Made by a program: the position numbers and the translations under genes
Virus record (IMG/VR): IMGVR_UViG_2802429217_000005
Span: 1 to 38,049 of that record
From: a virus
Taxonomy: Duplodnaviria > Heunggongvirae > Uroviricota > Caudoviricetes
Length of the DNA stretch: 38,049 bases
Strand: one strand, 5' to 3'
Notes under the pieces: generated by a model
Database searches by the model: none
Told to the model about the DNA's origin: nothing
What the model saw: only the letters and a program-made list of their open reading frames with translations
Shown: in pieces, positions 453 through 28,205 of the stretch
Layout: each line of letters starts with the position of its first letter
Position numbering within the stretch: the stretch's first letter is position 1

Positions 453-3010
453 CGTCCACCTCCGGAGAACAGACCACCATCGCGCATCTGCCCGGTCACA
501 ACATCCATTGCCGCCTTACGGGCTACGTCATAAACAGCCTTCAGCGCCTGTGGCCCTATCTGCCCGTTCGTGCCGTCGTTGTTAATCACCACATGGTTAT
601 TCTGCTCAAACGTCCCGGACGCCTGCGACCGGCTGTCTGCCATGCTGCCCGGTGTACCGACATAACCGCCGGTGGCATAGCCGCGCATCAGCCGGTAAAG
701 ATTCCCCACGCCAATCCGGCTGGTTGCCTCCTTCGTGAAGACAAACTCACCACGGTGAACAATCCCCGCTGGCTCATATTTGCCGCCGGTTCCCGTAAAC
801 CCTCCGGTTGCAAAATGGAATTTCGCCGCAGCGGCCTGAATGGCTGTACCGCCTGACGCGGATGCGCCGCCACCAACAGCCCCGCCAATGGCGCTGCCGA
901 TACTCCCGACAATCCCCACCATTGCCTGCTTAAGCAGAATTTCTGTCATCATGGACAGCACGGAACGGGTGAAGCTGCGCCAGTTCTGCTCACTGCCGGT
1001 CAGCATCGCCGCCATATTCTGTGCAATACCATCAAAGGTCTGCGTGGCTGCACTTTTTACCTGCGACATACTGTCCGTGGCGCTCTCTTCCCACTCACTC
1101 CAGCCGGACTTCAGGCCTGCCATCCAGTTCCCGCGAAGCTGGTCTTCAGCCGCCCAGGTCTTTTTCTGCTCTGACATGACGTTATTCAGCGCCAGCGGAT
1201 TATCGCCATACTGTTCATTCAGGCGCTGTTCTGTGGCTTCCCGTTCTGCCTGCCGGTCAGTCAGCCCCCGGCTTTTCGCATCAATGGCGGCCCGTTTTGC
1301 CCGTTGCTGCTGTGCGAATTTATCCGCCTGCTGCGCCAGCGCATTCAGGCGCTCCTGATACGTGACCTTATCGCCAAGTGCAGCCAGCTGGCGTTTGTAC
1401 TCCAGCGTCTCATCTTTATGCGCCAGCAGGGATTTCTCCTGTGCGGACAGCTGGCGACGTTGTGCCGCCTCCTCCAGTACCGCGAACTGACTCTCCGCCT
1501 TCCACAAATCCCGGCGCTGCTGGCTGATTTTCTCATTTGCTCCGGCATGCTTCTCCAGCGTCCGGAGTTCAGCCTGAAGCGTCAGCAGGGCAGCATGAGC
1601 ACTGTCTTCCTGACGATCGCCCGCAGACACCTTCACGCCGGACTGTTTCGGCTTTTTCAGCGTCGCTTCATAATCCTTTTTCGCCGCCGCCATCAGCGTG
1701 TTGTAATCTGCCTGCAGGATTTTCCCGTCTTTCAGTGCCTTGTTCAGTTCTTCCTGACGGGCGGTATATTTCTCCAGCGGCGTCTGCAGCCGTTCGTAAG
1801 CCTTCTGCGCCTCTTCGGTATATTTCAGCCGTGACGCTTCGGTATCGCTCTGCTGCTGCGCATTTTTGTCCTGTTGAGTCTGCTGCTCAGCCTTCTTTCG
1901 GGCGGCTTCAAGCGCAAGACGGGCCTTTTCACGATCATCCCAGTAACGCGCCCGCGCTTCATCGTTAACAAAATAATCATCCTTGCGCAGATTCCAGATG
2001 TCGTCTGCTTTCTTAAACGCAGCCTCTGCCTTAATCAGCATCTCCTGCGCGGTATCAGGACGACCAATATCCAGCACCGCATCCCACATGGATTTGAATG
2101 CCCGCGCTGTCCTGTCTGCCCAGGTCTCCAGCGTGCCCATGTTCTCTTTCAGGCGGCGGGTCTGGTCATCAAACCCTTTCGTTGCGGCCTCGTTCGCCGC
2201 CTGCAATGCCCCGGCTTCATCGCCGGAACGCTGCAACTGAGCAACATACGCAATCTGCTCCGCCGTCACGTTATGGAACTGGCGTGCCATCGCCGTCAGC
2301 CCCGACGTCGGGTCTGTGGTCAGCTTCCCGAAGGCTTCAGCGACCTTGTCCACCTCCACGCCGGATGCAGAGGAGAAACGCGCCACACTCTGGCTGATGG
2401 ACGCAATCTGAGCCTCACCGCTTACCCCCGCCTTAACCAGTGCGCTGAGTGACTCGCTGGTCTGGTTAAACGTCAGCCCTGCCGCCTGCCCGGCTCTGGA
2501 CAGGACCAGCATACGATCTGCCGTCAGTCCCGCCTGATTGCCGGAAAGGACCAGCGTTTTGTTGAAATCGGACAGGGTTGAGTTGCCCTGATACCAGGCA
2601 TACGCCAGCGCACCGGTCGCCACCGCCAGCGAGGTGGCCCCCACCATCGGCAGGGTGATCGCACCGGCAAGCCCCCTGAACATGGGGATCATCCCGCCGA
2701 AGGAGTCCTTCACCTGCCCCCCCTGTTGCAGCAGGATCAGCCACGGACTTTGCCCGCCTGCAAGCTGCGTGGCCACGTCGGTGAACTGTGCAGGCAGCAT
2801 ACGCATGGCGGCTTTATACTGCCCGACGGAAATCCCCGCTTTCTGTGCAGCCAGCGCCTGTCGGCTCAGCGACTGTTCAACGACTGCCGCTGTTTTTTTC
2901 GCATCACTTTCCGTACCGGAAAAATGACGCCTGACTCTGGCCATCTGCTCGTCAAATCTGGCCGCATCCAGACTCAAATCAACGACCAGATCGCCTACCG
3001 GTTCAGCCAT
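449..3010 (-). CDS. H: tail tape measure protein H
   Basis: 853-aa ORF, coiled-coil rich with a Gly-rich C-terminal region; length and sequence match lambda gpH; start overlaps the end of the T frame. Confidence 0.95.
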   Translation of the reverse strand: MAEPVGDLVVDLSLDAARFDEQMARVRRHFSGTESDAKKTAAVVEQSLSRQALAAQKAGISVGQYKAAMRMLPAQFTDVATQLAGGQSPWLILLQQGGQVKDSFGGMIPMFRGLAGAITLPMVGATSLAVATGALAYAWYQGNSTLSDFNKTLVLSGNQAGLTADRMLVLSRAGQAAGLTFNQTSESLSALVKAGVSGEAQIASISQSVARFSSASGVEVDKVAEAFGKLTTDPTSGLTAMARQFHNVTAEQIAYVAQLQRSGDEAGALQAANEAATKGFDDQTRRLKENMGTLETWADRTARAFKSMWDAVLDIGRPDTAQEMLIKAEAAFKKADDIWNLRKDDYFVNDEARARYWDDREKARLALEAARKKAEQQTQQDKNAQQQSDTEASRLKYTEEAQKAYERLQTPLEKYTARQEELNKALKDGKILQADYNTLMAAAKKDYEATLKKPKQSGVKVSAGDRQEDSAHAALLTLQAELRTLEKHAGANEKISQQRRDLWKAESQFAVLEEAAQRRQLSAQEKSLLAHKDETLEYKRQLAALGDKVTYQERLNALAQQADKFAQQQRAKRAAIDAKSRGLTDRQAEREATEQRLNEQYGDNPLALNNVMSEQKKTWAAEDQLRGNWMAGLKSGWSEWEESATDSMSQVKSAATQTFDGIAQNMAAMLTGSEQNWRSFTRSVLSMMTEILLKQAMVGIVGSIGSAIGGAVGGGASASGGTAIQAAAAKFHFATGGFTGTGGKYEPAGIVHRGEFVFTKEATSRIGVGNLYRLMRGYATGGYVGTPGSMADSRSQASGTFEQNNHVVINNDGTNGQIGPQALKAVYDVARKAAMDVVTGQMRDGGLFSGGGR

Positions 3011-3841
3011 ACCGGACTCCTCCTGCGATCCCTTCTGATACTGTCATCAGCATTACGTCATCCTCCGTCATGTCCGCCACATCCGGGGAAGTAGGGATAA
3101 CTTCATTCCCGTCCGGGCCAAAGCGGACACCTCCGGCAAGCCCTGCCGCTTTCTGCATCAGCACATCATCTTCAGGCTCTTCGTCAGCCTCACGCCGGTT
3201 CAGCAGACTGAAATCCAGCGGATGCATATCCGGATCGCTGAAAAACAGGCTGAGCACGGTGTACGTCAGCCCGGAAAAGTGCATATCCAGCAGAACATCA
3301 TGAAAATAATGGGTACTGTAAAAGCGGTGCCAGTCGGCATACTCCGTGGATGACATCCCGGCAAGCATGGCACGCCAGTCGGGTCGCCCCATCTCACGCG
3401 CCAGTTTCAGGGCAAAACTCAGCTCACCGTCGAACACTTTCCCGCAGAAACAGGCTCTGCGGGCCCGGCGTCCTCTGTCTGTTCAGGGGCATTATTCACC
3501 ACAAACTCATACATACCAGACAACCGGTACACCACGTTTTCAGCATGAGAAATTGCCTCTGTAGGCCAGGTGGTAAGCACTTCCTGCTCAATCTGTTTAA
3601 CGGCTTCATTCATGGACGGCATCTGCGTCTTCTGCGGATGGTTATGCCACAGGGACATCGCCACCAGAAACGCGCCGGTTCTGATGGCGTCTTCCACAGT
3701 AAACTTCCGGTTGCTGTCTGACTCCGCCTGTTCTGCCTGCCGTTTCATCAGGGCGAGATGCTCAATACGCTGCAGGGCTGACAGTTCAGAAAGCGTGACG
3801 GTCACGCCGTTATGTTCAAATGATTCGGTTTTCAGGAACAT
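3003..3841 (-). CDS. T: tail assembly chaperone G-T fusion made by programmed -1 ribosomal frameshift
   Basis: The -1 frame downstream of the GGGAAAG heptamer stays open to 3003 and encodes a lambda gpT-like sequence (FDGELSFALKLAREMGRPDWRAMLAGMSS...); the T frame has no start of its own apart from the track's GTG artefact. Confidence 0.75.
3419..3841 (-). CDS. G: tail assembly chaperone G
   Basis: 140-aa ORF MFLKTESFEHNGVTVTLSELSALQRIEHLALMKRQ... matching lambda gpG; ends ...AGKCSTVS with the slippery site in its last codons. Confidence 0.9.
   Translation of the reverse strand: MFLKTESFEHNGVTVTLSELSALQRIEHLALMKRQAEQAESDSNRKFTVEDAIRTGAFLVAMSLWHNHPQKTQMPSMNEAVKQIEQEVLTTWPTEAISHAENVVYRLSGMYEFVVNNAPEQTEDAGPAEPVSAGKCSTVS
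3437..3443 (-). promoter_or_regulatory. slippery heptamer G GGA AAG for the G to G-T -1 frameshift
   Basis: Plus-strand CTTTCCC at 3437-3443 is GGGAAAG on the minus strand, in phase X XXY YYZ with G codons 133-135 (Ala-Gly-Lys). Confidence 0.8.
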
Positions 3842-3856
3842 CGCTGACTCTCCGGA

Positions 3857-4597
3857 TTAACTGTCGGTGACAGTGATTTCTGCAACCGCAGCAAGTTCAC
3901 CATTACCGGATACAACCGGAATGTTGACCTTACCTGCAGCAACGCCTTTCACGGTGATGGTCATACCACTGACCGACACGGTGGCTTTTGTTTTATCCGC
4001 TGACACCGCACGGAAGCTCTTGTCAGTTGCGCCCTCCGGCTGGAATGCCACGGTCAGCGTGGTGCTCTGCCCTTTCACCACCGAGGAGCTGGCAGGCGTC
4101 ACAGTCATACCGGTTGCCGCCGTCACCGTACTGCGATCTTCTGCCATTGACGGACGGCCCACATTGGTGACCTTCACCGTACGGGTGATCACTTCCTTCG
4201 CCGTCACCGCCTTACCGATACTGCTGACCCAGCCACGGAACACATCGACCGTGCCGTTCGGGAAGCGGATTTTATAGGCACGGGTATCACCTTCATTAAA
4301 CCACGCCAGCAGCGCCTGCTGCCCCTGCTCTCCGGGCATCCACGCCAGCGTGAAGCTGGTATCTCCGGCGGATTTCTGCCCCTGCCCGGTCGCGGTCCAG
4401 TCCGCATCTTCATCATCGAGATAACTGTCGTCATAGGACTCAGCGGTCAGTTCGCCGGGCGTCAGGTCTTTAACTTTAGCCAGACGCGACCAGTCAACGT
4501 CTGAAAGCGGGTTCGCATAAGGGTCGCCGCTCCCGTTATAAACCCACAGGGTGGTCCCGGCACCTTTCACCGGTATTGCTGGATTTGGTACAGGCAT
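3857..4597 (-). CDS. V: major tail tube protein V
   Basis: Protein from the internal ATG at 4597 ([20 protein letters not shown]..., 246 aa) matches lambda gpV including the C-terminal Ig-like region; GAGGA Shine-Dalgarno 5 nt upstream. The track ORF is extended 10 codons upstream. Confidence 0.93.
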
Positions 4598-7828: not shown

Positions 7829-9334
7829 TCATGGCATGGCCATGAGCATTTTCACGTCCGCATCACCATCTGCTGACGTCTGTGGCACGCCACCCTGTAC
7901 CGCTGCCGGTGAATGGTTCGCCATGAAATGTTCAAACATGGCGGTTGTGGATGCAGAGACCGGTTCTGCCTTACCTGATCCCGCAGCCAGCACAGCCCGG
8001 GCGCTCTCCACAGTCATTCCCGGGCAGGCAGCCAGCTGTTCAGCCTGCACCTCAGCCCCTTTTGCCTCATCCAGTGCCATGATCTGATCACGGAGTGATG
8101 GTCCGGCATCCGCCTGCGGTGAAGCAGCCAGGATCGGGCGGGCTTTTTCCACCGTCATCTCCGGCATCGCCGCCAGTGTTGCCGCCAGTTGTTCACGACC
8201 GTTCGCTTCTTCACACGCCATAATGCGATCGGCTTCACTCTGCGTGGATGCCACCGGCTGCTGCGGTGCCGCCGCGGCCAGAATCGCCCGGGCCTGTTCA
8301 ACGCTCATGCCCTGTTGTCCTGCCAGCATCGTGGCAAGCTGTTCACGTCCTTTCGCTTCCTGGCATGTCAGGATCCCCATCACTCGCTGGTTCTCCTGCG
8401 CGGCGGCTTCCGTTGCAGTTAATTGCGGCATAGTGCCTCCTCTGACATTACTGTTCAGCGCCGTGGCCATCACACTGATGGCATCCGACGCATTGATTAA
8501 TTCATCCGCCAGCCCGGCCTCAATGCCGGACTGACCTTCAAAAACGGCGGCCTCTGTTCCCGTGACTGCATCAACAGACAGACCGGTAAACATCGCCACT
8601 TTTTCGGCAAACATCCGGCGCGCCGCATCAATCCGCTGCTGCATGTCCTGGCGAACCTCTGCCGGCAACGCTTCAAACTGATTGCCATCCACCTTGTGCG
8701 CCCCTGAGTAAATCAGCGTGATATCCACACCGGCCTGCGCCAGATGACCGGCATAGCTGACATGGCTCATCATCACGCCAATGGAACCGATACGGGATGT
8801 CTGGGTAACCAGCCGTCGGGAGCAGGCCGACGCCAGCAGCATGGCTGCAGAACAGGCCGTGTCATTGCACAGTGCCCAGACCGGCTTCTGCTGACGGAGG
8901 CGGTAAATCATGTCAGCGCAGTCAAACGCGCCGGCGGCCTGCCCACCCGGACTGTCAATGTCCAGCAGTACGCCCCGCACCTGGCTATCCGCCATTGCCT
9001 GCTGAAGACAGGCGACAATACCGTCATAGCCTGTCATTCCGGAAAATGGCCGCATACCACCCAGCCGGTGCACCAGCGTGCCGGTCACCGGCAGTACAGC
9101 AATACCGTTCACCACCCTGTAAACACGGGCAGGTCGTTTACCTCCGGCCATGTACTCGTCCGTTTCAGCCAGCATTCCGGGAGCATCAAACTGTACCTGC
9201 TGTTGTGGTACCGAAAGACTTGCTGCCCCCATCTCGCGCCCGAGCGCGCAAAAGAAAACCCGCGCATAGGCGGGCTCCAGAAGCAGCGGTTCATTGAATG
9301 CTGCGGCAATAATGTGTGAAAGATTACGTCTCAC
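7829..9334 (-). CDS. C: prohead protease/minor capsid protein C with in-frame Nu3-like scaffold region
   Basis: 501-aa ORF; N-terminal S49/ClpP-like peptidase region resembling lambda gpC; C-terminal part has three tandem ~40-aa repeats resembling the Nu3 scaffold region. Confidence 0.88.
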   Translation of the reverse strand: MRRNLSHIIAAAFNEPLLLEPAYARVFFCALGREMGAASLSVPQQQVQFDAPGMLAETDEYMAGGKRPARVYRVVNGIAVLPVTGTLVHRLGGMRPFSGMTGYDGIVACLQQAMADSQVRGVLLDIDSPGGQAAGAFDCADMIYRLRQQKPVWALCNDTACSAAMLLASACSRRLVTQTSRIGSIGVMMSHVSYAGHLAQAGVDITLIYSGAHKVDGNQFEALPAEVRQDMQQRIDAARRMFAEKVAMFTGLSVDAVTGTEAAVFEGQSGIEAGLADELINASDAISVMATALNSNVRGGTMPQLTATEAAAQENQRVMGILTCQEAKGREQLATMLAGQQGMSVEQARAILAAAAPQQPVASTQSEADRIMACEEANGREQLAATLAAMPEMTVEKARPILAASPQADAGPSLRDQIMALDEAKGAEVQAEQLAACPGMTVESARAVLAAGSGKAEPVSASTTAMFEHFMANHSPAAVQGGVPQTSADGDADVKMLMAMP

Positions 9335-24044: not shown

Positions 24045-24503
24045 CGGTTGTCTCTGCTGGCGCAGCAGGTGCCAGTTGTTCAGGCTGGCGTATAAAGTAT
24101 AAATAAACTGGTTCCAGTGTAAAGCCCCTACATTAATGAAATAAAAATCAAACAACAGATTGCTGGGATAAAACACAACGCTTATTATTAAAAGCGATTA
24201 GATAAATTAAATTTTAATGTTATGCAAATTTGCCAGATCACCATAATATCTCGTTTGAAACCACCGAAATAACAACCATATCAATATTGATTATGTTAAA
24301 GCGAGTAAATATGGAAAACAACAAATCTGCACATTACGCTCCTTTTTTATCTGTGATACTTTTTGTTTTATGCTGTGTGTGGGCATTATTTTTATAAAAA
24401 TATTTACAGATAAAATAAACCCGCCGAATCAAGTTAAGTGTGGGTGCATTGAGGATGCCTGACTCATCAGAGGTGGCGAGGGATTTCTCCCTCGCCAGGT
24501 CTC

Positions 24504-24659
24504 TTACTCCTCAGGTTCGTAAGCTGTGAAGACAGCGACCTCCGTTTGGCTGGTTCGGATTCGTACCTCACAGAGATCTTTCCTCGTTACCAGTGCCGTC
24601 ACAATGACGGTTAAACAGATGACGATCAGGGCGATTAACATCGCCTTTTGCTGCTCCAT
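24504..24659 (-). CDS. hok: Hok-family type I toxin (HokD/RelF-like)
   Basis: 51-codon ORF missed by the >=60-aa track: MEQQKAMLIALIVICLTVIVTALVTRKDLCEVRIRTSQTEVAVFTAYEPEE, near-identical to E. coli HokD as recalled; AGGAG 9 nt upstream. Confidence 0.85.
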   Translation of the reverse strand: MEQQKAMLIALIVICLTVIVTALVTRKDLCEVRIRTSQTEVAVFTAYEPEE

Positions 24660-24841
24660 AGCCTGCTTCTCCTAGCCTTTCGGCACGTAAGAGGCTAACC
24701 TACATTTGTGAGACATAGATTGGGCCTCAGATTAATGTTAAGCGTCTTGCAGGACGCTTAATGTTAACTGTGCTTTTCTTTATCTGCCTTTTGGTGTTCA
24801 TGCCTGAGACAGATAGCCTCAATCACCCGCAGCGATTTTAC

Positions 24842-24856
24842 TTACCCTCCCCTCTA
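24842..24856. repeat. left copy of a 15-bp perfect direct repeat TTACCCTCCCCTCTA
   Basis: Exact 15-mer, repeated at 25962-25976; the flanks continue as an imperfect repeat (CGATACTACAAC vs CGATATACTA...GCTACAAC). Confidence 0.8.
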
Positions 24857-24943
24857 GTTCATTCGATACTACAACTTTATTTTCTTTTCGTTGTCTATAT
24901 AGTAAATAACATGTAATAAAAGTTACTCACTAACAATGGAGAG

Positions 24944-25168
24944 ATGCATATGCCCACACTTATCGGAAAAGTGCTTCGTCGATACACAAGTGCTGTAGCA
25001 ACCCATGTTGACACCCATCTTGAGCAAACGACAAAATATCGTCTTACAGTTGATGCGAACGGTAATGCCACCCTGAACATAGAAAACCCAGAAGTTCAAG
25101 CAGACATCATCAAGAAAATGAAACAATTGCGAAAACTACATAACCGTACAGACAAGGAAGTTGCTTAA
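24944..25168 (+). CDS. small basic protein of unknown function (first gene of the repeat-bounded operon)
   Basis: 74-aa ORF (likely start at the ATG at 24950, GGAGAG 6 nt upstream); its TAA overlaps the ATG of the next gene (TAATG); candidate -35 TTGTCT / -10 TAATAA upstream. Confidence 0.5.
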   Translation: MHMPTLIGKVLRRYTSAVATHVDTHLEQTTKYRLTVDANGNATLNIENPEVQADIIKKMKQLRKLHNRTDKEVA

Positions 25169-25959
25169 TGGGTCCATTGATTATAACTGTGATTCTCGTG
25201 TGTGGTTTTTGGTACACCGAGAATCACTATCAATCGAGAATTCATCACGCAAGAACAAATGGGTGGTCATCCTATTTCTACGTTGCAATGCATGGGTGTC
25301 GTTTTGTTGCTCAAGGATTTCTTTTGACGCTCGGGATCTACATGCTTTTCTGGCTACTGAACTCTATCCCACACATAATCAATATTTTCCGAGACAAACC
25401 TATAGAATGGCATTTTTTTAATTGGTTACTTGAAACCAAAGTGATGGAATTACCACTTTTTGCTGTCATCACCATCATTTTCGCTTGTTGTATTGCTTAC
25501 TCTGAGGGGGTGGATGCGCGAAAAGAAATGGAGAATGAAGAAGCGCGCCAAAAGGCTTACAGGGAGATGGCATCAAAAGATTCACTAGAAAACCTATTGA
25601 TCCAAGCCATTGACACAGAGATGCTGATTTTTGTAACACTAAAATCCAGAAAAGTATATATCGGGTATGTGTCAGCACCACGTGTTGAATTCCACAACAG
25701 TGCGCATCTTGAGATCATACCATTCATTAGTGGTTACAGAGATAAGGACTCACTACGCTACATAGAACAACACCGATACTATGATCTCTATCTATCCAAA
25801 GAAATCACATTTGAGTCCGAACCATTAAATTTACAACATTTTCGACACGTCATTCCTATCGAACAAATTGAAGCGATCTCGCTCTTTGATGAAAGCACGT
25901 ACAGCGATTTTGAAAGATTTTCCGAGCCAATGCCTGACACAAAGCAATTACCAGTATAG
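25168..25959 (+). CDS. membrane protein with three N-terminal TM helices and a ~150-aa C-terminal domain, unknown function
   Basis: 263-aa ORF, translationally coupled to the upstream gene; AAGGAAG Shine-Dalgarno; visibly AT-rich; no family recognised. Confidence 0.6.
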   Translation: MGPLIITVILVCGFWYTENHYQSRIHHARTNGWSSYFYVAMHGCRFVAQGFLLTLGIYMLFWLLNSIPHIINIFRDKPIEWHFFNWLLETKVMELPLFAVITIIFACCIAYSEGVDARKEMENEEARQKAYREMASKDSLENLLIQAIDTEMLIFVTLKSRKVYIGYVSAPRVEFHNSAHLEIIPFISGYRDKDSLRYIEQHRYYDLYLSKEITFESEPLNLQHFRHVIPIEQIEAISLFDESTYSDFERFSEPMPDTKQLPV

Positions 25960-25961
25960 TA

Positions 25962-25976
25962 TTACCCTCCCCTCTA
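25962..25976. repeat. right copy of the 15-bp direct repeat TTACCCTCCCCTCTA
   Basis: Exact match to 24842-24856, 3 nt after the stop of the 263-aa gene. Confidence 0.8.
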
Positions 25977-26282
25977 ACGATATACTAAAAAGCCGCTACA
26001 ACTGGACTGCCCCCATAAAGTTGGACAGTTCATGTTAAGCGGCTTTCAGGGCTTGACCCAACAGAAGTTAGATTGTAAGTATCCCGCTTAAACGGACCAT
26101 CTGGTCTTTGTTCCACGGTGACGTGCTCATACCTCCTGAAATGTGGGAGATTTGAGTATGGTTGTCCCTTATGAGCGAAATTTGCACGAAGCGGATAAGT
26201 TACCGGAGCTGAAGGTCCGCTGTGAGCGAAGAGCGGACCTGAGATTGTGGTATGCTAATTTATGGGGATCAGGTCAATTGTA

Positions 26283-26975
26283 TTAGTTATCTTTTTGCTT
26301 TTCTTTATCCCATTTCTTTGCAGTGGTCTGATACCACTCTTCACGCACTCGTTGTTCCTCGGCTCTGTCACTTGAATTATAGTTGTCCGTTTTAATTTTT
26401 TTGCTTCCATGGGAAATCGGCCTCCAGTCTTCTCTAATCTTTTTCACCTGCTCGGCTATCTGTGTCATTGGACTCCTTGCACCTAAGTAGCTAACCCCCT
26501 CGAAAGAAGCCATATCATAAGAATACTCATTCCGCTCTCTTTCAGTTGAGCCCGGCTGTTTAGACCAACTAATACTAACAGAATAAACTTGATCTTTAAT
26601 CTGTTCATACTTACAAAGACTGCTGTTGAGCGAATGGCCGTTTTTTAATACGCTAACCTTGCTAAATGGTATACCTATATTTTTTCTATGTTCAGCATTT
26701 ACCAGTGGGGGATTAAATCCGATTTCAATATCATAGGCTGGGGCATTTCCGGTATTAGCAATATTGATATCAAAATAAAAAGCAGCCCAAGAATTTGGTT
26801 CAAGAGTCACAACGACGTGAGGTTGAACTGATGCGTCAACCATCCTTTTTGTCTCGTCTGCTAATAGCCTTGTTACTCTCCACAAGAAAAATGTAGCAAC
26901 TGCTGTTAGCAATGCTGCCAAAGCGGAGATAAGTGTGCTTACAGTGTTTATATGCTCTGCGATAAATTCGATCAT
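26283..26975 (-). CDS. N-terminally TM-anchored protein of unknown function
   Basis: 230-aa ORF with one hydrophobic segment (residues ~10-32) and a Lys/Glu-rich C-terminus; AAGGA Shine-Dalgarno; convergent with the repeat-bounded operon. Confidence 0.55.
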   Translation of the reverse strand: MIEFIAEHINTVSTLISALAALLTAVATFFLWRVTRLLADETKRMVDASVQPHVVVTLEPNSWAAFYFDINIANTGNAPAYDIEIGFNPPLVNAEHRKNIGIPFSKVSVLKNGHSLNSSLCKYEQIKDQVYSVSISWSKQPGSTERERNEYSYDMASFEGVSYLGARSPMTQIAEQVKKIREDWRPISHGSKKIKTDNYNSSDRAEEQRVREEWYQTTAKKWDKEKQKDN

Positions 26976-27466
26976 GAGTTGTCCTTGGGGGCGTACTAAT
27001 TGTTTTCAAGACTAAAATAGCGCCGGGCTTGAAAAATTGCACACTTATGGTTCGATTTACCTCAACAGTTAAGGCTTCAGCTTCCCCCATGCACCTCACC
27101 CAGCTCAAGACTGTATGATGTCTGACAAAGAACTTACTGACACTTGAAAACGAGGTAGCGTCTAGGATTTCTCGTAGGGGAAGGATTGAATACGAAGCCT
27201 GTATATTGCTCCGCGAACGCTGCTGAGAGCAGTTTAAATGTTGGGCGTTTATGTGGCCTTTCACTCACCAGCATGAGTTCAATGCCTGTGAATTACCGAC
27301 AACAATATAAAGGGGGTGGCATCATCATATATCCAAGGTAGAGTCAAATCCTTTAACTGGTTTTATGATCAGCGTCAATTGTTTAATTATTGAACGTTTA
27401 CGAAGCGGCACGGGAGTCATATAACTAATGGGCAGGTATAAGCCTGTATCACGAGGAATCAGTAAA

Positions 27467-27646
27467 ATGGCTGATGATAAGACCAAAATCGGTACCCCTG
27501 ACAATGATTTAATAAGTATCAAACAGGATTACGAAAGACGTGATTGGGCTGAAAAGTTTGGAGTTAGCGAGGCCAAACTTGTTCAAGCCGTACAGGCTGT
27601 AGGTCATTCGGCTAAGAAAGTACAGGCATGGCTTAAAGACCATTAA
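27467..27646 (+). CDS. small protein, DUF3606-like
   Basis: 59 aa from the ATG at 27467 (MADDKTKIGTPDNDLISIKQDYERRDWAEKFGVSEAKLVQAVQAVGHSAKKVQAWLKDH); family recalled from the motif pattern only. Confidence 0.45.
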   Translation: MADDKTKIGTPDNDLISIKQDYERRDWAEKFGVSEAKLVQAVQAVGHSAKKVQAWLKDH

Positions 27647-27698
27647 TATATGAGCGCCTTTCTAGGCGCTTTTTTCTCTGTCCTTTTGGAGATGATTT

Positions 27699-27977
27699 AT
27701 GGCTAATAATTTATTTATTACTTATGACCTCATTAAAACGAAAGATTATGCGGCTGTGTATGATGCAATTAAATCTTTAGGAAATTGGGCTTTAACAACT
27801 GAATCGAACTGGTATGTTAACTGTAGTTACTCTGCCGAGGATGCAGCCAAAATTGTGAGGGCGGTCATGGATAGTGATGATAAACTTATTGTTGTAGACG
27901 CAACCAATAACTTAGTTTATTGGTACAATCTCTCTGATGAAGTTAGTAACCAAATTCAGACTGAGTGGTACAAGTAA
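27699..27977 (+). CDS. hypothetical protein
   Basis: 92-aa ORF with GGAGA Shine-Dalgarno 7 nt upstream; followed by a hairpin terminator; no family recognised. Confidence 0.45.
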   Translation: MANNLFITYDLIKTKDYAAVYDAIKSLGNWALTTESNWYVNCSYSAEDAAKIVRAVMDSDDKLIVVDATNNLVYWYNLSDEVSNQIQTEWYK

Positions 27978-27979
27978 TT

Positions 27980-28003
27980 AAAGGGGGATACCCCCCTTTA
28001 ATT
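27980..28003 (+). terminator. candidate intrinsic terminator after the plus-strand gene pair
   Basis: AAAGGGGG-ATAC-CCCCCTTT hairpin followed by an AATT-rich stretch, 3 nt after the stop at 27977. Confidence 0.45.
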
Positions 28004-28205
28004 CAGAAACTATCATGATTGAAACATTAAATATACTGGGTTTATTCTATCATCCCTGCTCTCTTGCTATATGTCCTGAAAGCGTTCTTTTAAACCTTCT
28101 GCTCAGTATGTCCGGTAATGGCACAAAGCGGACAACCACGCTAGCTCTACCCTATGCCATGAAAATGCCAATTCACATATTAATTAATGCTCTTAAATAT
28201 CATCA

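What the first reader, a model, noticed from the sequence alone, without database searches (positions are those of the whole stretch)
26283..26975. TM-anchored 230-aa protein convergent with the cassette
It has a single N-terminal membrane anchor, a Lys/Glu-rich tail, a good Shine-Dalgarno and AT-rich DNA, with no recognisable family. It may be a separate moron or a third component of the neighbouring module.
Basis: inference. Interest (0 to 1): 0.5.

Follow-up and report, generated by a model that had tools for sequence, protein, structure and literature searches.

The report
Membrane-anchored prophage cargo gene, likely antiviral
This is a real, well-conserved gene for a small membrane-anchored protein that travels on its own between phages and other mobile elements, sits in places where phages keep antiviral genes, and is most likely an untested single-gene defence against other phages, not a part of the neighbouring gene pair.

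Summary
The 230-aa ORF (26283-26975, minus strand) is real and under purifying selection. It belongs to a large unnamed family (PHROG 11802; 1,834 representatives at 50% identity) with no Pfam, NCBIfam, PADLOC or PDB match. It is not a third component of the 24944-25959 pair: among 5,426 complete E. coli genomes the gene is in 105, the pair in 7, and they are adjacent in 5. It lies in a 1.94-kb cassette (26223-28160) that is ~96% identical to the Z/fun cargo locus of P2-like phages. Here the cassette sits in the hokD-DUF977 hotspot of a lambdoid prophage. The cassette's other half, DUF3606 plus a 92-aa gene, is listed as validated defence system DS-46 in the DefensePredictor paper. That paper scores what is almost certainly this gene's orthologue as a "predicted novel defense gene" (log-odds 7-8) but did not test it. 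The model shows an N-out/C-in transmembrane helix, a cytoplasmic Ig-like sandwich and charged helices. The helix is the most conserved part and shows heptad periodicity. Best reading: a stand-alone, membrane-acting phage-exclusion moron. The mechanism is inferred, not shown.

The parts
26283..26975 (-). CDS of the 230-aa membrane-anchored protein (phrog_11802 family; 'putative lysogenic conversion protein' ORF1 of P2-EC53)
   Evidence: ORF; phrog_11802 E=2.8e-145; 96% identical proteins in P2-EC53 and R18C; dN/dS 0.17-0.21
26982..26986 (-). Shine-Dalgarno AAGGA, 6 nt upstream of the ATG
   Evidence: read directly from the sequence; P2-EC53 annotates a ribosome-binding site at the equivalent position
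26880..26942 (-). Codons 12-32: the single transmembrane helix (VSTLISALAALLTAVATFFLW)
   Evidence: hydropathy and positive-inside analysis; helix in the AlphaFold model; invariant A25, A27, T28, L31
26832..26879 (-). Codons 33-48: juxtamembrane helix RVTxxLAxETKRMxxA. With the inner half of the TM helix it is the most conserved part of the protein, and its conservation has a 3.5-residue periodicity
   Evidence: entropy 0.63-0.75 here against 1.42 for the sandwich; periodicity peak at 3.5 residues, reached by 21 of 2,000 permutations
26514..26816 (-). Codons ~54-154: seven-strand Ig-like beta-sandwich, predicted cytoplasmic, with a conserved D69 / N74-T75-G76-N77 loop and an F87-x-P89-P90-L91 motif
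26286..26471 (-). Codons ~169-230: two C-terminal helices and the Lys/Arg/Glu-rich tail
   Evidence: model; composition; the tail is the least conserved part (entropy 2.78)
26223..27200 (.). Module A of the shared cassette: the target gene plus ~225 nt of its 5' region. It is separable from module B
   Evidence: blastn boundaries against P2-EC53, R18C, A27, Pantoea, Kosakonia and NCTC11023
27210..28119 (+). Module B: DUF3606 gene (27428-27646) and 92-aa gene (27699-27977) with terminator-like hairpins at 27652-27671 and 27983-27995. It equals defence system DS-46. It is a neighbour of the target, not a partner
   Evidence: Pfam DUF3606 E=4e-18; found alone in NCTC11023; the same protein accessions (WP_001406733.1, WP_000002748.1) as in A27 are listed as defensive, DS-46, in PMC13092281 Table S6
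28108..28160 (.). About 52 nt of lambdoid backbone downstream of the DUF977 gene, also carried at the edge of the P2-type cassette. Likely the recombination joint
   Evidence: homology with S88 resumes at 28108; ~870 other E. coli genomes match only this piece; 89-92% to lambdoid phages mEp460, Tritos, Evi; 84% to P2-EC53 and R18C
24855..28107 (.). Variable cargo hotspot of the lambdoid prophage between hokD/sok and the DUF977 gene. It contains the 74+263-aa pair, an integrase scar, and modules A and B
   Evidence: backbone homology with the S88 prophage ends at 24854 and resumes at 28108; other strains carry DS-33 or other cargo in the hotspot, and a sister prophage has RosmerTA just leftward of hokD

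Best explanation
The gene is an independent, single-gene moron that protects the lysogen against other phages. Proposed mechanism (inferred, not shown): the protein inserts in the inner membrane with a short N-terminus outside and the bulk inside. The conserved inner half of the TM helix and the juxtamembrane helix form a helix-helix packing surface, either with copies of itself or with a conserved membrane partner. The cytoplasmic Ig-like sandwich, which has no catalytic features, acts as the binding or sensing module for a phage component. Engagement alters the helix assembly and compromises the membrane, or blocks an early membrane-associated infection step, so the infection is aborted or excluded. 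Shown: the gene is real and under selection, it moves alone, it lies in hotspots that hold validated defence systems, and the domain architecture is as described. Inferred: topology, oligomerisation, the sensor role and the antiviral phenotype.
For: 1. Mobility as its own unit. The 1.94-kb cassette is ~96% identical between this lambdoid prophage and the Z/fun locus of the P2-like phages R18C, P2-EC53 and A27. Module A occurs without module B in Kosakonia, Biostraticola and Pectobacterium, and module B occurs without A in NCTC11023. No neighbour is conserved across 72 loci of Alpha-, Beta- and Gammaproteobacteria.
2. Defence-hotspot context in independent elements. P2 Z/fun is a recognised accessory/defence hotspot, and P2's own gene there, fun(Z), blocks T5. 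In the lambdoid hokD-DUF977 hotspot other strains carry DS-33, and a sister prophage carries RosmerTA just across hokD. Module B beside the target is listed as defensive DS-46. A truncated copy lies by an AbiJ-like gene next to a P4-type primase, with a pAgo (Piwi) gene and a YjhX toxin nearby in another strain. The Rhizobium homologue sits next to a TIR gene matching the PADLOC candidate PDC-S35. Homologues adjoin integrases in Xanthomonas and Klebsiella.
3. Independent machine-learning prediction. DefensePredictor Table S5 lists a 230-aa gene 492 nt from DS-46 with log-odds 6.99 (the paper's strict cut-off is 4), and Table S10 lists a cluster-mate at 8.24. Both are labelled 'Predicted novel defense gene'.
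4. Architecture. The model has pLDDT 84.8. The K+R count is 0.26 on the N side and 3.66 on the C side of the TM across the family. Residues 22-48 are the most conserved part, with a 3.5-residue periodicity. The family is uniformly ~180-250 aa with no enzymatic fusion, and the fold is only a generic Ig-like sandwich.
Against: No experiment exists for this gene or for any family member, and it is absent from the tested sets of the DefensePredictor paper. That paper's own validation precision was about 45%, and its model uses genomic context, so it is not independent of the hotspot argument. Across the 72 diverse loci the immediate neighbours are mostly not defence genes; they include housekeeping genes such as gyrase/topoisomerase IV and GatB. 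No known defence HMM matches the protein. Topology, oligomerisation and the sensor role rest on sequence statistics and a monomer model (pTM 0.56). No clear sigma-70 promoter was found on its strand, so expression in the lysogen is unproven. The identity of WP_042002648.1 with this gene rests on length, spacing and neighbour accessions, not on a sequence comparison.
Confidence: 0.5

Rival explanations
1. Superinfection exclusion at the entry step. The protein sits in the inner membrane and blocks genome injection or an early membrane-bound step of incoming phages without killing the cell, as described for T4 Imm, P22 SieA and HK97 gp15 (established knowledge).
For: It is a small single-pass inner-membrane protein encoded by temperate phages in a lysogenic-conversion locus. 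The conserved TM and juxtamembrane face could dock on a conserved host membrane protein. The P2 gene at the same locus, fun(Z), is an exclusion gene. There is no enzymatic domain.
Against: The predicted topology puts about 190 of 230 residues in the cytoplasm, with only ~10 residues outside. The family is found in bacteria from Rhizobium to Pseudomonas, often outside prophages, which fits a general mechanism better than a block tailored to one phage's injection machinery. There is no similarity to known Sie proteins in PHROGs or Pfam.
Confidence: 0.2
2. A non-antiviral lysogenic-conversion or mobile-element fitness gene, such as an envelope or stress function, or a maintenance function of the element.
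For: It was annotated 'putative lysogenic conversion protein' in P2-EC53. Many homologues sit between housekeeping genes with no defence neighbour. Hotspots also carry non-defence cargo such as partition systems and toxins. The Ig-like sandwich is a generic interaction fold.
Against: The gene recurs next to validated or candidate defence genes in at least four unrelated element types. DefensePredictor gives log-odds of 7-8. There is no signal peptide, lipobox or enzymatic motif that would suggest a surface or metabolic role.
Confidence: 0.2
3. An accessory or regulatory partner of the adjacent DS-46 pair (DUF3606 + 92-aa), transcribed divergently from it.
For: The two modules travel together at ~96% identity between P2-like and lambdoid phages, and also occur together in Pantoea. 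In Pseudomonas machongensis a distant 92-aa-like gene lies immediately upstream of a distant target homologue on the same strand (phmmer E=6.6e-5).
Against: DS-46 was cloned as the two-gene unit alone and scored defensive. Module B occurs without the target in NCTC11023. The target occurs without module B in about 68 of 72 loci. In Pantoea an extra ~310 nt separates the two modules.
Confidence: 0.07
4. Third component of the convergent 74-aa + 263-aa pair at 24944-25959.
For: They are adjacent in this window and in four or five near-identical prophages.
Against: The pair is in 7 genomes and the target in 105 of 5,426, with adjacency in 5. The pair is absent from every P2-type copy and every distant locus. 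An integrase-gene scar and a homology break at 26223 separate them.
Confidence: 0.02

Closest known systems
P2 Fun(Z) (NP_046777.1), the lysogenic-conversion gene of phage P2 that blocks T5
   Same: It occupies the same genome slot in P2-like phages, between tail-fibre assembly gene G and sheath gene FI. It is non-essential prophage cargo.
   Different: It is 528 aa with no sequence similarity (best BLASTP E=1.6). It is transcribed in the opposite orientation relative to FI. It is a positional analogue, not a homologue.
DS-46 (DUF3606 + small protein), validated in the DefensePredictor study (PMC13092281)
   Same: It shares the same 1.94-kb cassette and the same hotspots, and has been co-transferred between P2-like and lambdoid phages.
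   Different: The proteins are unrelated, lie on the opposite strand, and each module is found without the other. DS-46 has been tested; the target has not.
drt1b, the small membrane partner of the DRT type 1 reverse-transcriptase/nitrilase system
   Same: DefensePredictor's HHblits run reports it as the only remote hit, with Prob 91-92 over ~16% of the query (about 37 residues), which is the length of the conserved helix.
   Different: No PADLOC model, that library's DRT models included, matches at E<=1. No reverse transcriptase is nearby in any locus. The coverage is too short to infer homology of the whole protein.
Membrane effectors of signalling defence systems (CBASS Cap15, Pycsar PycTM: TM helices plus a small cytoplasmic beta domain; from established knowledge)
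   Same: The general plan is similar: N-terminal TM segment(s) and a small non-enzymatic cytoplasmic beta-rich domain that could bind a ligand and drive membrane disruption.
Cytoplasmic Ig-like domain of inward-rectifier K+ channels (KirBac3.1, 1xl4)

Membership tests
PHROG 11802 (unannotated phage protein family) | Full-length match to the family HMM | tested here: met
   E=2.8e-145, residues 1-230 on profile positions 1-230 of 230
Any curated Pfam or NCBIfam family | Score above the curated cut-off | tested here: not met
   Best Pfam hit TMEM260-like, 11.9 bits against a cut-off of 24.2. Best NCBIfam hits 12.8 and 9.5 bits against cut-offs of 95 and 55
Known or candidate defence families in PADLOC-DB v2 (including DRT type 1) | HMM match to a component of a listed system | tested here: not met
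   No family at E<=1. The published drt1b HHblits hit covers only 16% of the query
Three-gene module with the 24944-25959 pair | Consistent co-occurrence and adjacency across genomes | tested here: not met
   Pair in 7 genomes, target in 105, adjacent in 5 of 5,426. The pair is absent from P2 copies and distant loci
DS-46 defence system | Being a required or constantly associated component of the DUF3606 + 92-aa unit | tested here: not met
   DS-46 was scored defensive as a two-gene unit. Each module occurs without the other
P2 Fun(Z) family | Sequence homology to NP_046777.1 | tested here: not met
   BLASTP best E=1.6
Prophage defence-hotspot cargo (moron) | Non-core gene in a variable locus flanked by conserved phage backbone, where other cargo replaces it in related phages | tested here: met
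   Lambdoid backbone homology breaks at 24854 and resumes at 28108, with different cargo in S88, 1344_LBHALD and D217-5. It lies at the Z/fun locus in P2-like phages
Anti-phage defence gene | Reduces phage plating or propagation when expressed | not testable with these tools
   Only a prediction exists: DefensePredictor log-odds 6.99 and 8.24. The gene is not among the tested units
Phage structural, lysis or replication families | Sequence or fold match to such a family | tested here: not met

The most novel reading that the evidence does not exclude
The protein founds a widespread family of single-protein immunity, with about 1,800 sequence clusters from Rhizobium to E. coli. In this reading its conserved transmembrane and juxtamembrane helix is a self-assembling membrane-disrupting module, possibly the same module as drt1b of DRT type 1. 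The module would be gated directly by a cytoplasmic Ig-like sensor domain, making a one-gene sensor-effector with no enzymatic activity and no partner.
Probability: 0.25. Interest if true: 0.65.

Novelty: new member of a known kind. Interest (0 to 1): 0.42.

Why it matters
If the cloned gene restricts phages, it would add a very compact (693-nt), partner-free and enzyme-free immunity gene. It has a broad distribution across Proteobacteria and a tractable architecture: a conserved membrane helix plus an Ig-like domain. The locus also gives a concrete example of how defence cargo moves. The same 1.94-kb block, made of two separable defence-type modules, is found at ~96% identity in the tail-gene hotspot of P2-like phages and in the hokD-DUF977 hotspot of a lambdoid prophage. 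The P2 copies carry about 52 nt of lambdoid backbone at one edge, and the window holds a scar of a hotspot-resident small integrase. The practical value is limited because the gene has already been flagged computationally as a predicted defence gene, and nothing here proves function.

Tried and rejected
- **Flanking inverted repeats as a mobility signature.** P2-EC53 annotates 'left/right inverted repeats' and the repeat finder gave weak pairs. A local alignment of the window's two flanks scored 19, against 16.5 +/- 2.5 (maximum 27) for shuffles, and the two EC53 repeats do not align with each other either. Rejected.
- **The ~52-nt edge as P2 backbone.** Rejected: it is lambdoid backbone, 89-92% to mEp460, Tritos and Evi but 84% to the P2 copies.
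- **Homology to P2 Fun(Z).** None.
- **PDB sequence search.** Only insignificant matches of the C-terminal helices to TFAM and designed coiled coils (E>=0.1).
- **Domain fusions.** The top 150 hits of the exhaustive profile search are all ~100-340 aa and show no added domain.
- **Conserved partner gene.** Clustering of all neighbouring ORFs, and Pfam and PADLOC scans of 143 immediate neighbours, found none. The largest cluster (8 loci) is one shared ICE-like element.
- **Small ORFs upstream of the homologues in Klebsiella, Yokenella, Xanthomonas and Rhizobium.** Unrelated to DUF3606 or the 92-aa protein.
- **Rfam.** Only sok in the region, nothing in the cassette.
- **Literature by accession or by 'P2-EC53'.** No main-text hits. 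The Rousset 2022 hotspot study concerns the other P2 hotspot, gpA-gpQ.
- **Promoter scan.** No sigma-70-like promoter on the minus strand upstream of the gene at the tool's threshold.

Full report
**Observation**

It is an ATG-initiated ORF of 230 aa on the minus strand at 26283-26975. An AAGGA Shine-Dalgarno lies at 26982-26986, six bases before the start (read). The protein has one hydrophobic segment, residues 12-32, and no other. In the last 35 residues, 17 are charged. It lies in a stretch of 40-43% GC, against 54-61% GC in the first ~11 kb of the window. It is convergent with the 263-aa ORF that ends at 25959.

It is a real gene. dN/dS is 0.17-0.21 against the ~96%-identical copies in P2-like phages and 0.045 against the Biostraticola orthologue, and the frames are intact. 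It matches phrog_11802 end to end (E=2.8e-145). A word-indexed search found 236 homologues. An exhaustive profile search of 1.84 billion representatives found 1,834 at E<=1e-3 and 158 at E<=1e-30; the 150 best listed are mostly ~180-250 aa with no fused domains. It has no Pfam, NCBIfam or PADLOC family and no sequence relative in the PDB.

**Setting**

The window is a Rac/Qin-type lambdoid prophage. Around the target it carries:
- Q, RusA and DUF968 genes;
- hokD (24504-24659) with its sok RNA (24657-24826; Rfam 81.8 bits);
- then, beyond the target, DUF977, DUF1627 and an O-like replication gene.

Backbone homology with the related S88 prophage stops at 24854, just after hok/sok, and resumes at 28108, just downstream of the DUF977 gene. 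So ~24855-28107 is a variable cargo hotspot. In S88 this hotspot holds two genes, one with the same accession (WP_014639476.1) and one a near-variant of the pair listed as defensive system DS-33 in the DefensePredictor study. In strain 1344_LBHALD it holds other genes and an intact ~200-aa site-specific integrase. In the near-identical sister prophage of strain D217-5, a RosmerTA system is inserted just across hokD (RmrA E=1.5e-105, RmrT E=1.4e-24).

**The cassette**

Window 26223-28160 (1.94 kb) is 95.5-96% identical to the 'Z-region' of phage P2-EC53 (AJ512682), where the target is annotated 'putative lysogenic conversion protein, ORF1'. It is equally close to phage R18C and to a P2-like prophage in strain A27. 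In all of these it lies between tail-fibre assembly gene G and sheath gene FI. That slot is P2's Z/fun locus, where P2 itself carries fun(Z), a gene that blocks T5. The literature recognises it as an accessory/defence hotspot.

The cassette is composite:
- **Module A** (26223-~27200) is the target and its upstream region.
- **Module B** (27210-28119) is a DUF3606 gene (27428-27646) and a 92-aa gene (27699-27977) on the other strand.

Module B occurs without A next to an integrase in strain NCTC11023. Module A occurs without B in Kosakonia, Biostraticola and Pectobacterium. In Pantoea an extra ~310 nt separates the two.

The last ~52 nt of the shared block (28108-28160) are lambdoid backbone. 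About 870 further E. coli genomes match only this piece. It is 89-92% identical to the lambdoid phages mEp460, Tritos and Evi but only 84% to the P2 copies. This suggests the P2 lineage acquired the block from a lambdoid phage through this patch (inference).

**Test of the 'third component' idea**

In 5,426 complete E. coli genomes the target is present in 105, the 24944-25959 pair in 7, and a query spanning both is covered in only 5. The pair is absent from every P2-type copy. Among the 72 loci retrieved from species-representative genomes of Alpha-, Beta- and Gammaproteobacteria, plus the E. coli contexts, it appears only in the sister prophage. Between the pair and the cassette lies a scar: the Shine-Dalgarno and first 20 codons of the hotspot's small integrase (about 26068-26138, minus strand). 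The target is therefore not part of that module.

No other partner emerges either. Clustering of all neighbouring ORFs, and Pfam and PADLOC scans of 143 immediate neighbours, found nothing conserved. The largest group (8 loci) is one shared ICE-like element with ParB-like and DUF932 genes.

**Published information found through the neighbours**

[quoted passage not shown] These are the accessions of module B in strain A27, and WP_001406733.1 is also the D217-5 protein. According to the text, this was the only one of 24 units with remote homology but a low score that defended.

Table S5 of the same paper lists, on the same contig at 61801-62493 on the opposite strand, a 693-nt / 230-aa hypothetical protein, WP_042002648.1:
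- mean log-odds 6.99 (the paper's strict threshold is 4);
- category 'Predicted novel defense gene';
- one HHblits remote hit, DRT_1~drt1b, Prob 91 at query coverage 0.16.

Table S10 lists a cluster-mate, WP_032223676.1, at log-odds 8.24. The 492-nt gap to DS-46 equals that in A27, so this is almost certainly the target's orthologue. I could not compare the sequences directly. None of these accessions appears in the tables of tested constructs. The gene is therefore computationally predicted as defensive but untested.

**Structure**

Numbering below is protein numbering. My alignment reference clipped Met1, so model residue n is protein residue n+1.

With a 59-sequence alignment AlphaFold2 gives pLDDT 84.8:
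- one long helix, residues 3-49 (TM 12-32 plus a juxtamembrane extension);
- a seven-strand beta-sandwich, ~54-154;
- a helix at 169-188;
- a terminal helix at 201-229.

Across the family the short N-terminal flank (median 10 residues) carries 0.26 Lys+Arg on average, against 3.66 in the 15 residues after the TM. By the positive-inside rule this predicts N-out/C-in, with the sandwich and tail in the cytoplasm (inference).

The 'anchor' is the most conserved part of the protein. Column entropy is 0.63 for residues 22-32 and 0.75 for 33-48, against 1.42 for the sandwich and 2.78 for the tail. A25, A27, T28, L31, V34, T35, L38, A39, E41 and T42 are invariant. The conservation profile of residues 14-48 peaks at a 3.5-residue period, reached by 21 of 2,000 permutations. 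That pattern indicates a helix-helix packing surface running from the inner leaflet into the cytoplasm, not a passive anchor (inference). The 16% query coverage of the published drt1b hit is about the length of this helix.

**Interpretation**

The best-supported reading is a stand-alone moron that confers phage exclusion or defence. The steps that are shown:
- It is an independent mobile unit.
- It recurs in defence-type loci of at least four kinds of element:
  - the P2 Z/fun locus;
  - the lambdoid hokD-DUF977 hotspot;
  - a site beside an AbiJ-like gene next to a P4-type primase, with pAgo and a YjhX toxin nearby in another strain;
  - a site next to a TIR gene matching the PADLOC candidate PDC-S35 in Rhizobium.
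- Homologues also lie at integrase-proximal edges of islands in Xanthomonas and Klebsiella.
- Its immediate cassette-mate is listed as a validated system.

The inferred steps are cytoplasmic sensing by the Ig-like domain, helix-mediated assembly in the membrane, and either membrane damage (abortive infection) or a block of an early membrane step. I put about 0.6 on an antiviral function of some kind and about 0.5 on the stated stand-alone membrane-acting model, with the abortive and exclusion variants unresolved.

Against it:
- There is no experiment.
- DefensePredictor's validation precision was ~45%, and its model uses genomic context.
- Most immediate neighbours in distant genomes are not defence genes.
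- No promoter was detected upstream of the gene.

**Novelty and interest**

The gene has been in GenBank since the P2-EC53 deposit, annotated as a 'putative lysogenic conversion protein', and is listed as a predicted defence gene in a 2026 supplement. The family itself remains uncharacterised, unnamed in Pfam, and widespread. I file it as a new (candidate) member of a known kind: single-gene, membrane-anchored prophage defence or exclusion cargo. Interest is moderate. The hypothesis is clear and cheaply testable, and the cassette-shuttling anatomy is informative, but the finding is not a conceptual surprise.

Noticed in passing
window 27428-27977 (+), module B 27210-28119: The DUF3606 gene and the 92-aa gene next to the target carry the protein accessions listed as defensive system DS-46 in DefensePredictor Table S6. 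The 92-aa protein looks Cas2/VapD-like (PADLOC Cas2_II E=0.02 over residues 4-80; an 'ITYDL' first-strand motif).
   Followed up: partly
window ~26068-26138 (-); homology 26103-26186: Scar of a small (~200-aa) site-specific integrase: an AGGAGG Shine-Dalgarno plus 20 codons (MSTSPWNKDQMVRLSGILTI*). The intact gene sits in the same hokD-DUF977 hotspot of other lambdoid prophages, for example 1344_LBHALD, and hundreds of E. coli genomes match this piece. It may be what mediates cargo exchange at this hotspot.
   Followed up: partly
window 24944-25168 and 25168-25959 (+): The 74-aa + 263-aa pair (phrog_32583; phrog_3630/23864) is rare, found in 7 of 5,426 E. coli genomes and always >=99% identical. 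It has no Pfam or PADLOC match. By eye the 263-aa protein has several N-terminal hydrophobic segments. It is itself an unexplained cargo module in a defence hotspot.
   Followed up: partly
window 24090-24416 versus L003 2324-4195: The sister prophage in E. coli D217-5 has a RosmerTA system (RmrA E=1.5e-105, RmrT E=1.4e-24) inserted between the gene next to DUF968 and hokD. The window lacks it, so there is a second variable spot just left of hokD.
   Followed up: yes
L006 (E. coli S88) 1924-3903: The cargo in the same lambdoid hotspot of S88 (WP_014639476.1 plus a near-variant of WP_000354965.1) corresponds to validated system DS-33 of the DefensePredictor study.
   Followed up: yes
window 28108-28160: About 52 nt downstream of the DUF977 gene are conserved in ~870 other E. 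coli genomes and in lambdoid phages (89-92%), and are carried at 84% at the edge of the P2 Z-region cassette. This is a probable recombination joint and suggests lambdoid-to-P2 transfer.
   Followed up: yes
L085/L086 6001-6573 (proteins P0064, P0057, P0033): An abundant E. coli variant (69% identical) lacks the TM helix. Its 5' end abuts an IS3-family element, and it lies beside an AbiJ-like gene next to a P4-type primase. It is probably an IS-truncated remnant in a satellite defence locus.
   Followed up: partly
L042 7526-7945 (+) and 8001-8600 (+), Pseudomonas machongensis: A distant relative of the 92-aa protein (phmmer E=6.6e-5) lies immediately upstream of a 45%-identical target homologue on the same strand. 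This is a second, independent adjacency of the two families, and it is unexplained.
   Followed up: partly
window 26214-26239: A perfect 8-bp hairpin (GGTCCGCT / AGCGGACC, 10-nt loop) lies 44 nt downstream of the target's stop codon. The left edge of the P2-homologous block (26223) falls in its loop. P2-EC53 lacks the hairpin. There is no T-run, so it was not called as a terminator.
   Followed up: no
L011 (Pantoea leporis) ~8001-8681: The Pantoea copy of the target shows one in-frame stop in my extraction and an elevated dN/dS (0.50). It is either a pseudogene or an extraction artefact.
   Followed up: no
window 24504-24826 (-): A hokD toxin gene and its sok antisense RNA (Rfam RF01794, 81.8 bits) mark the left border of the hotspot.
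   Followed up: yes
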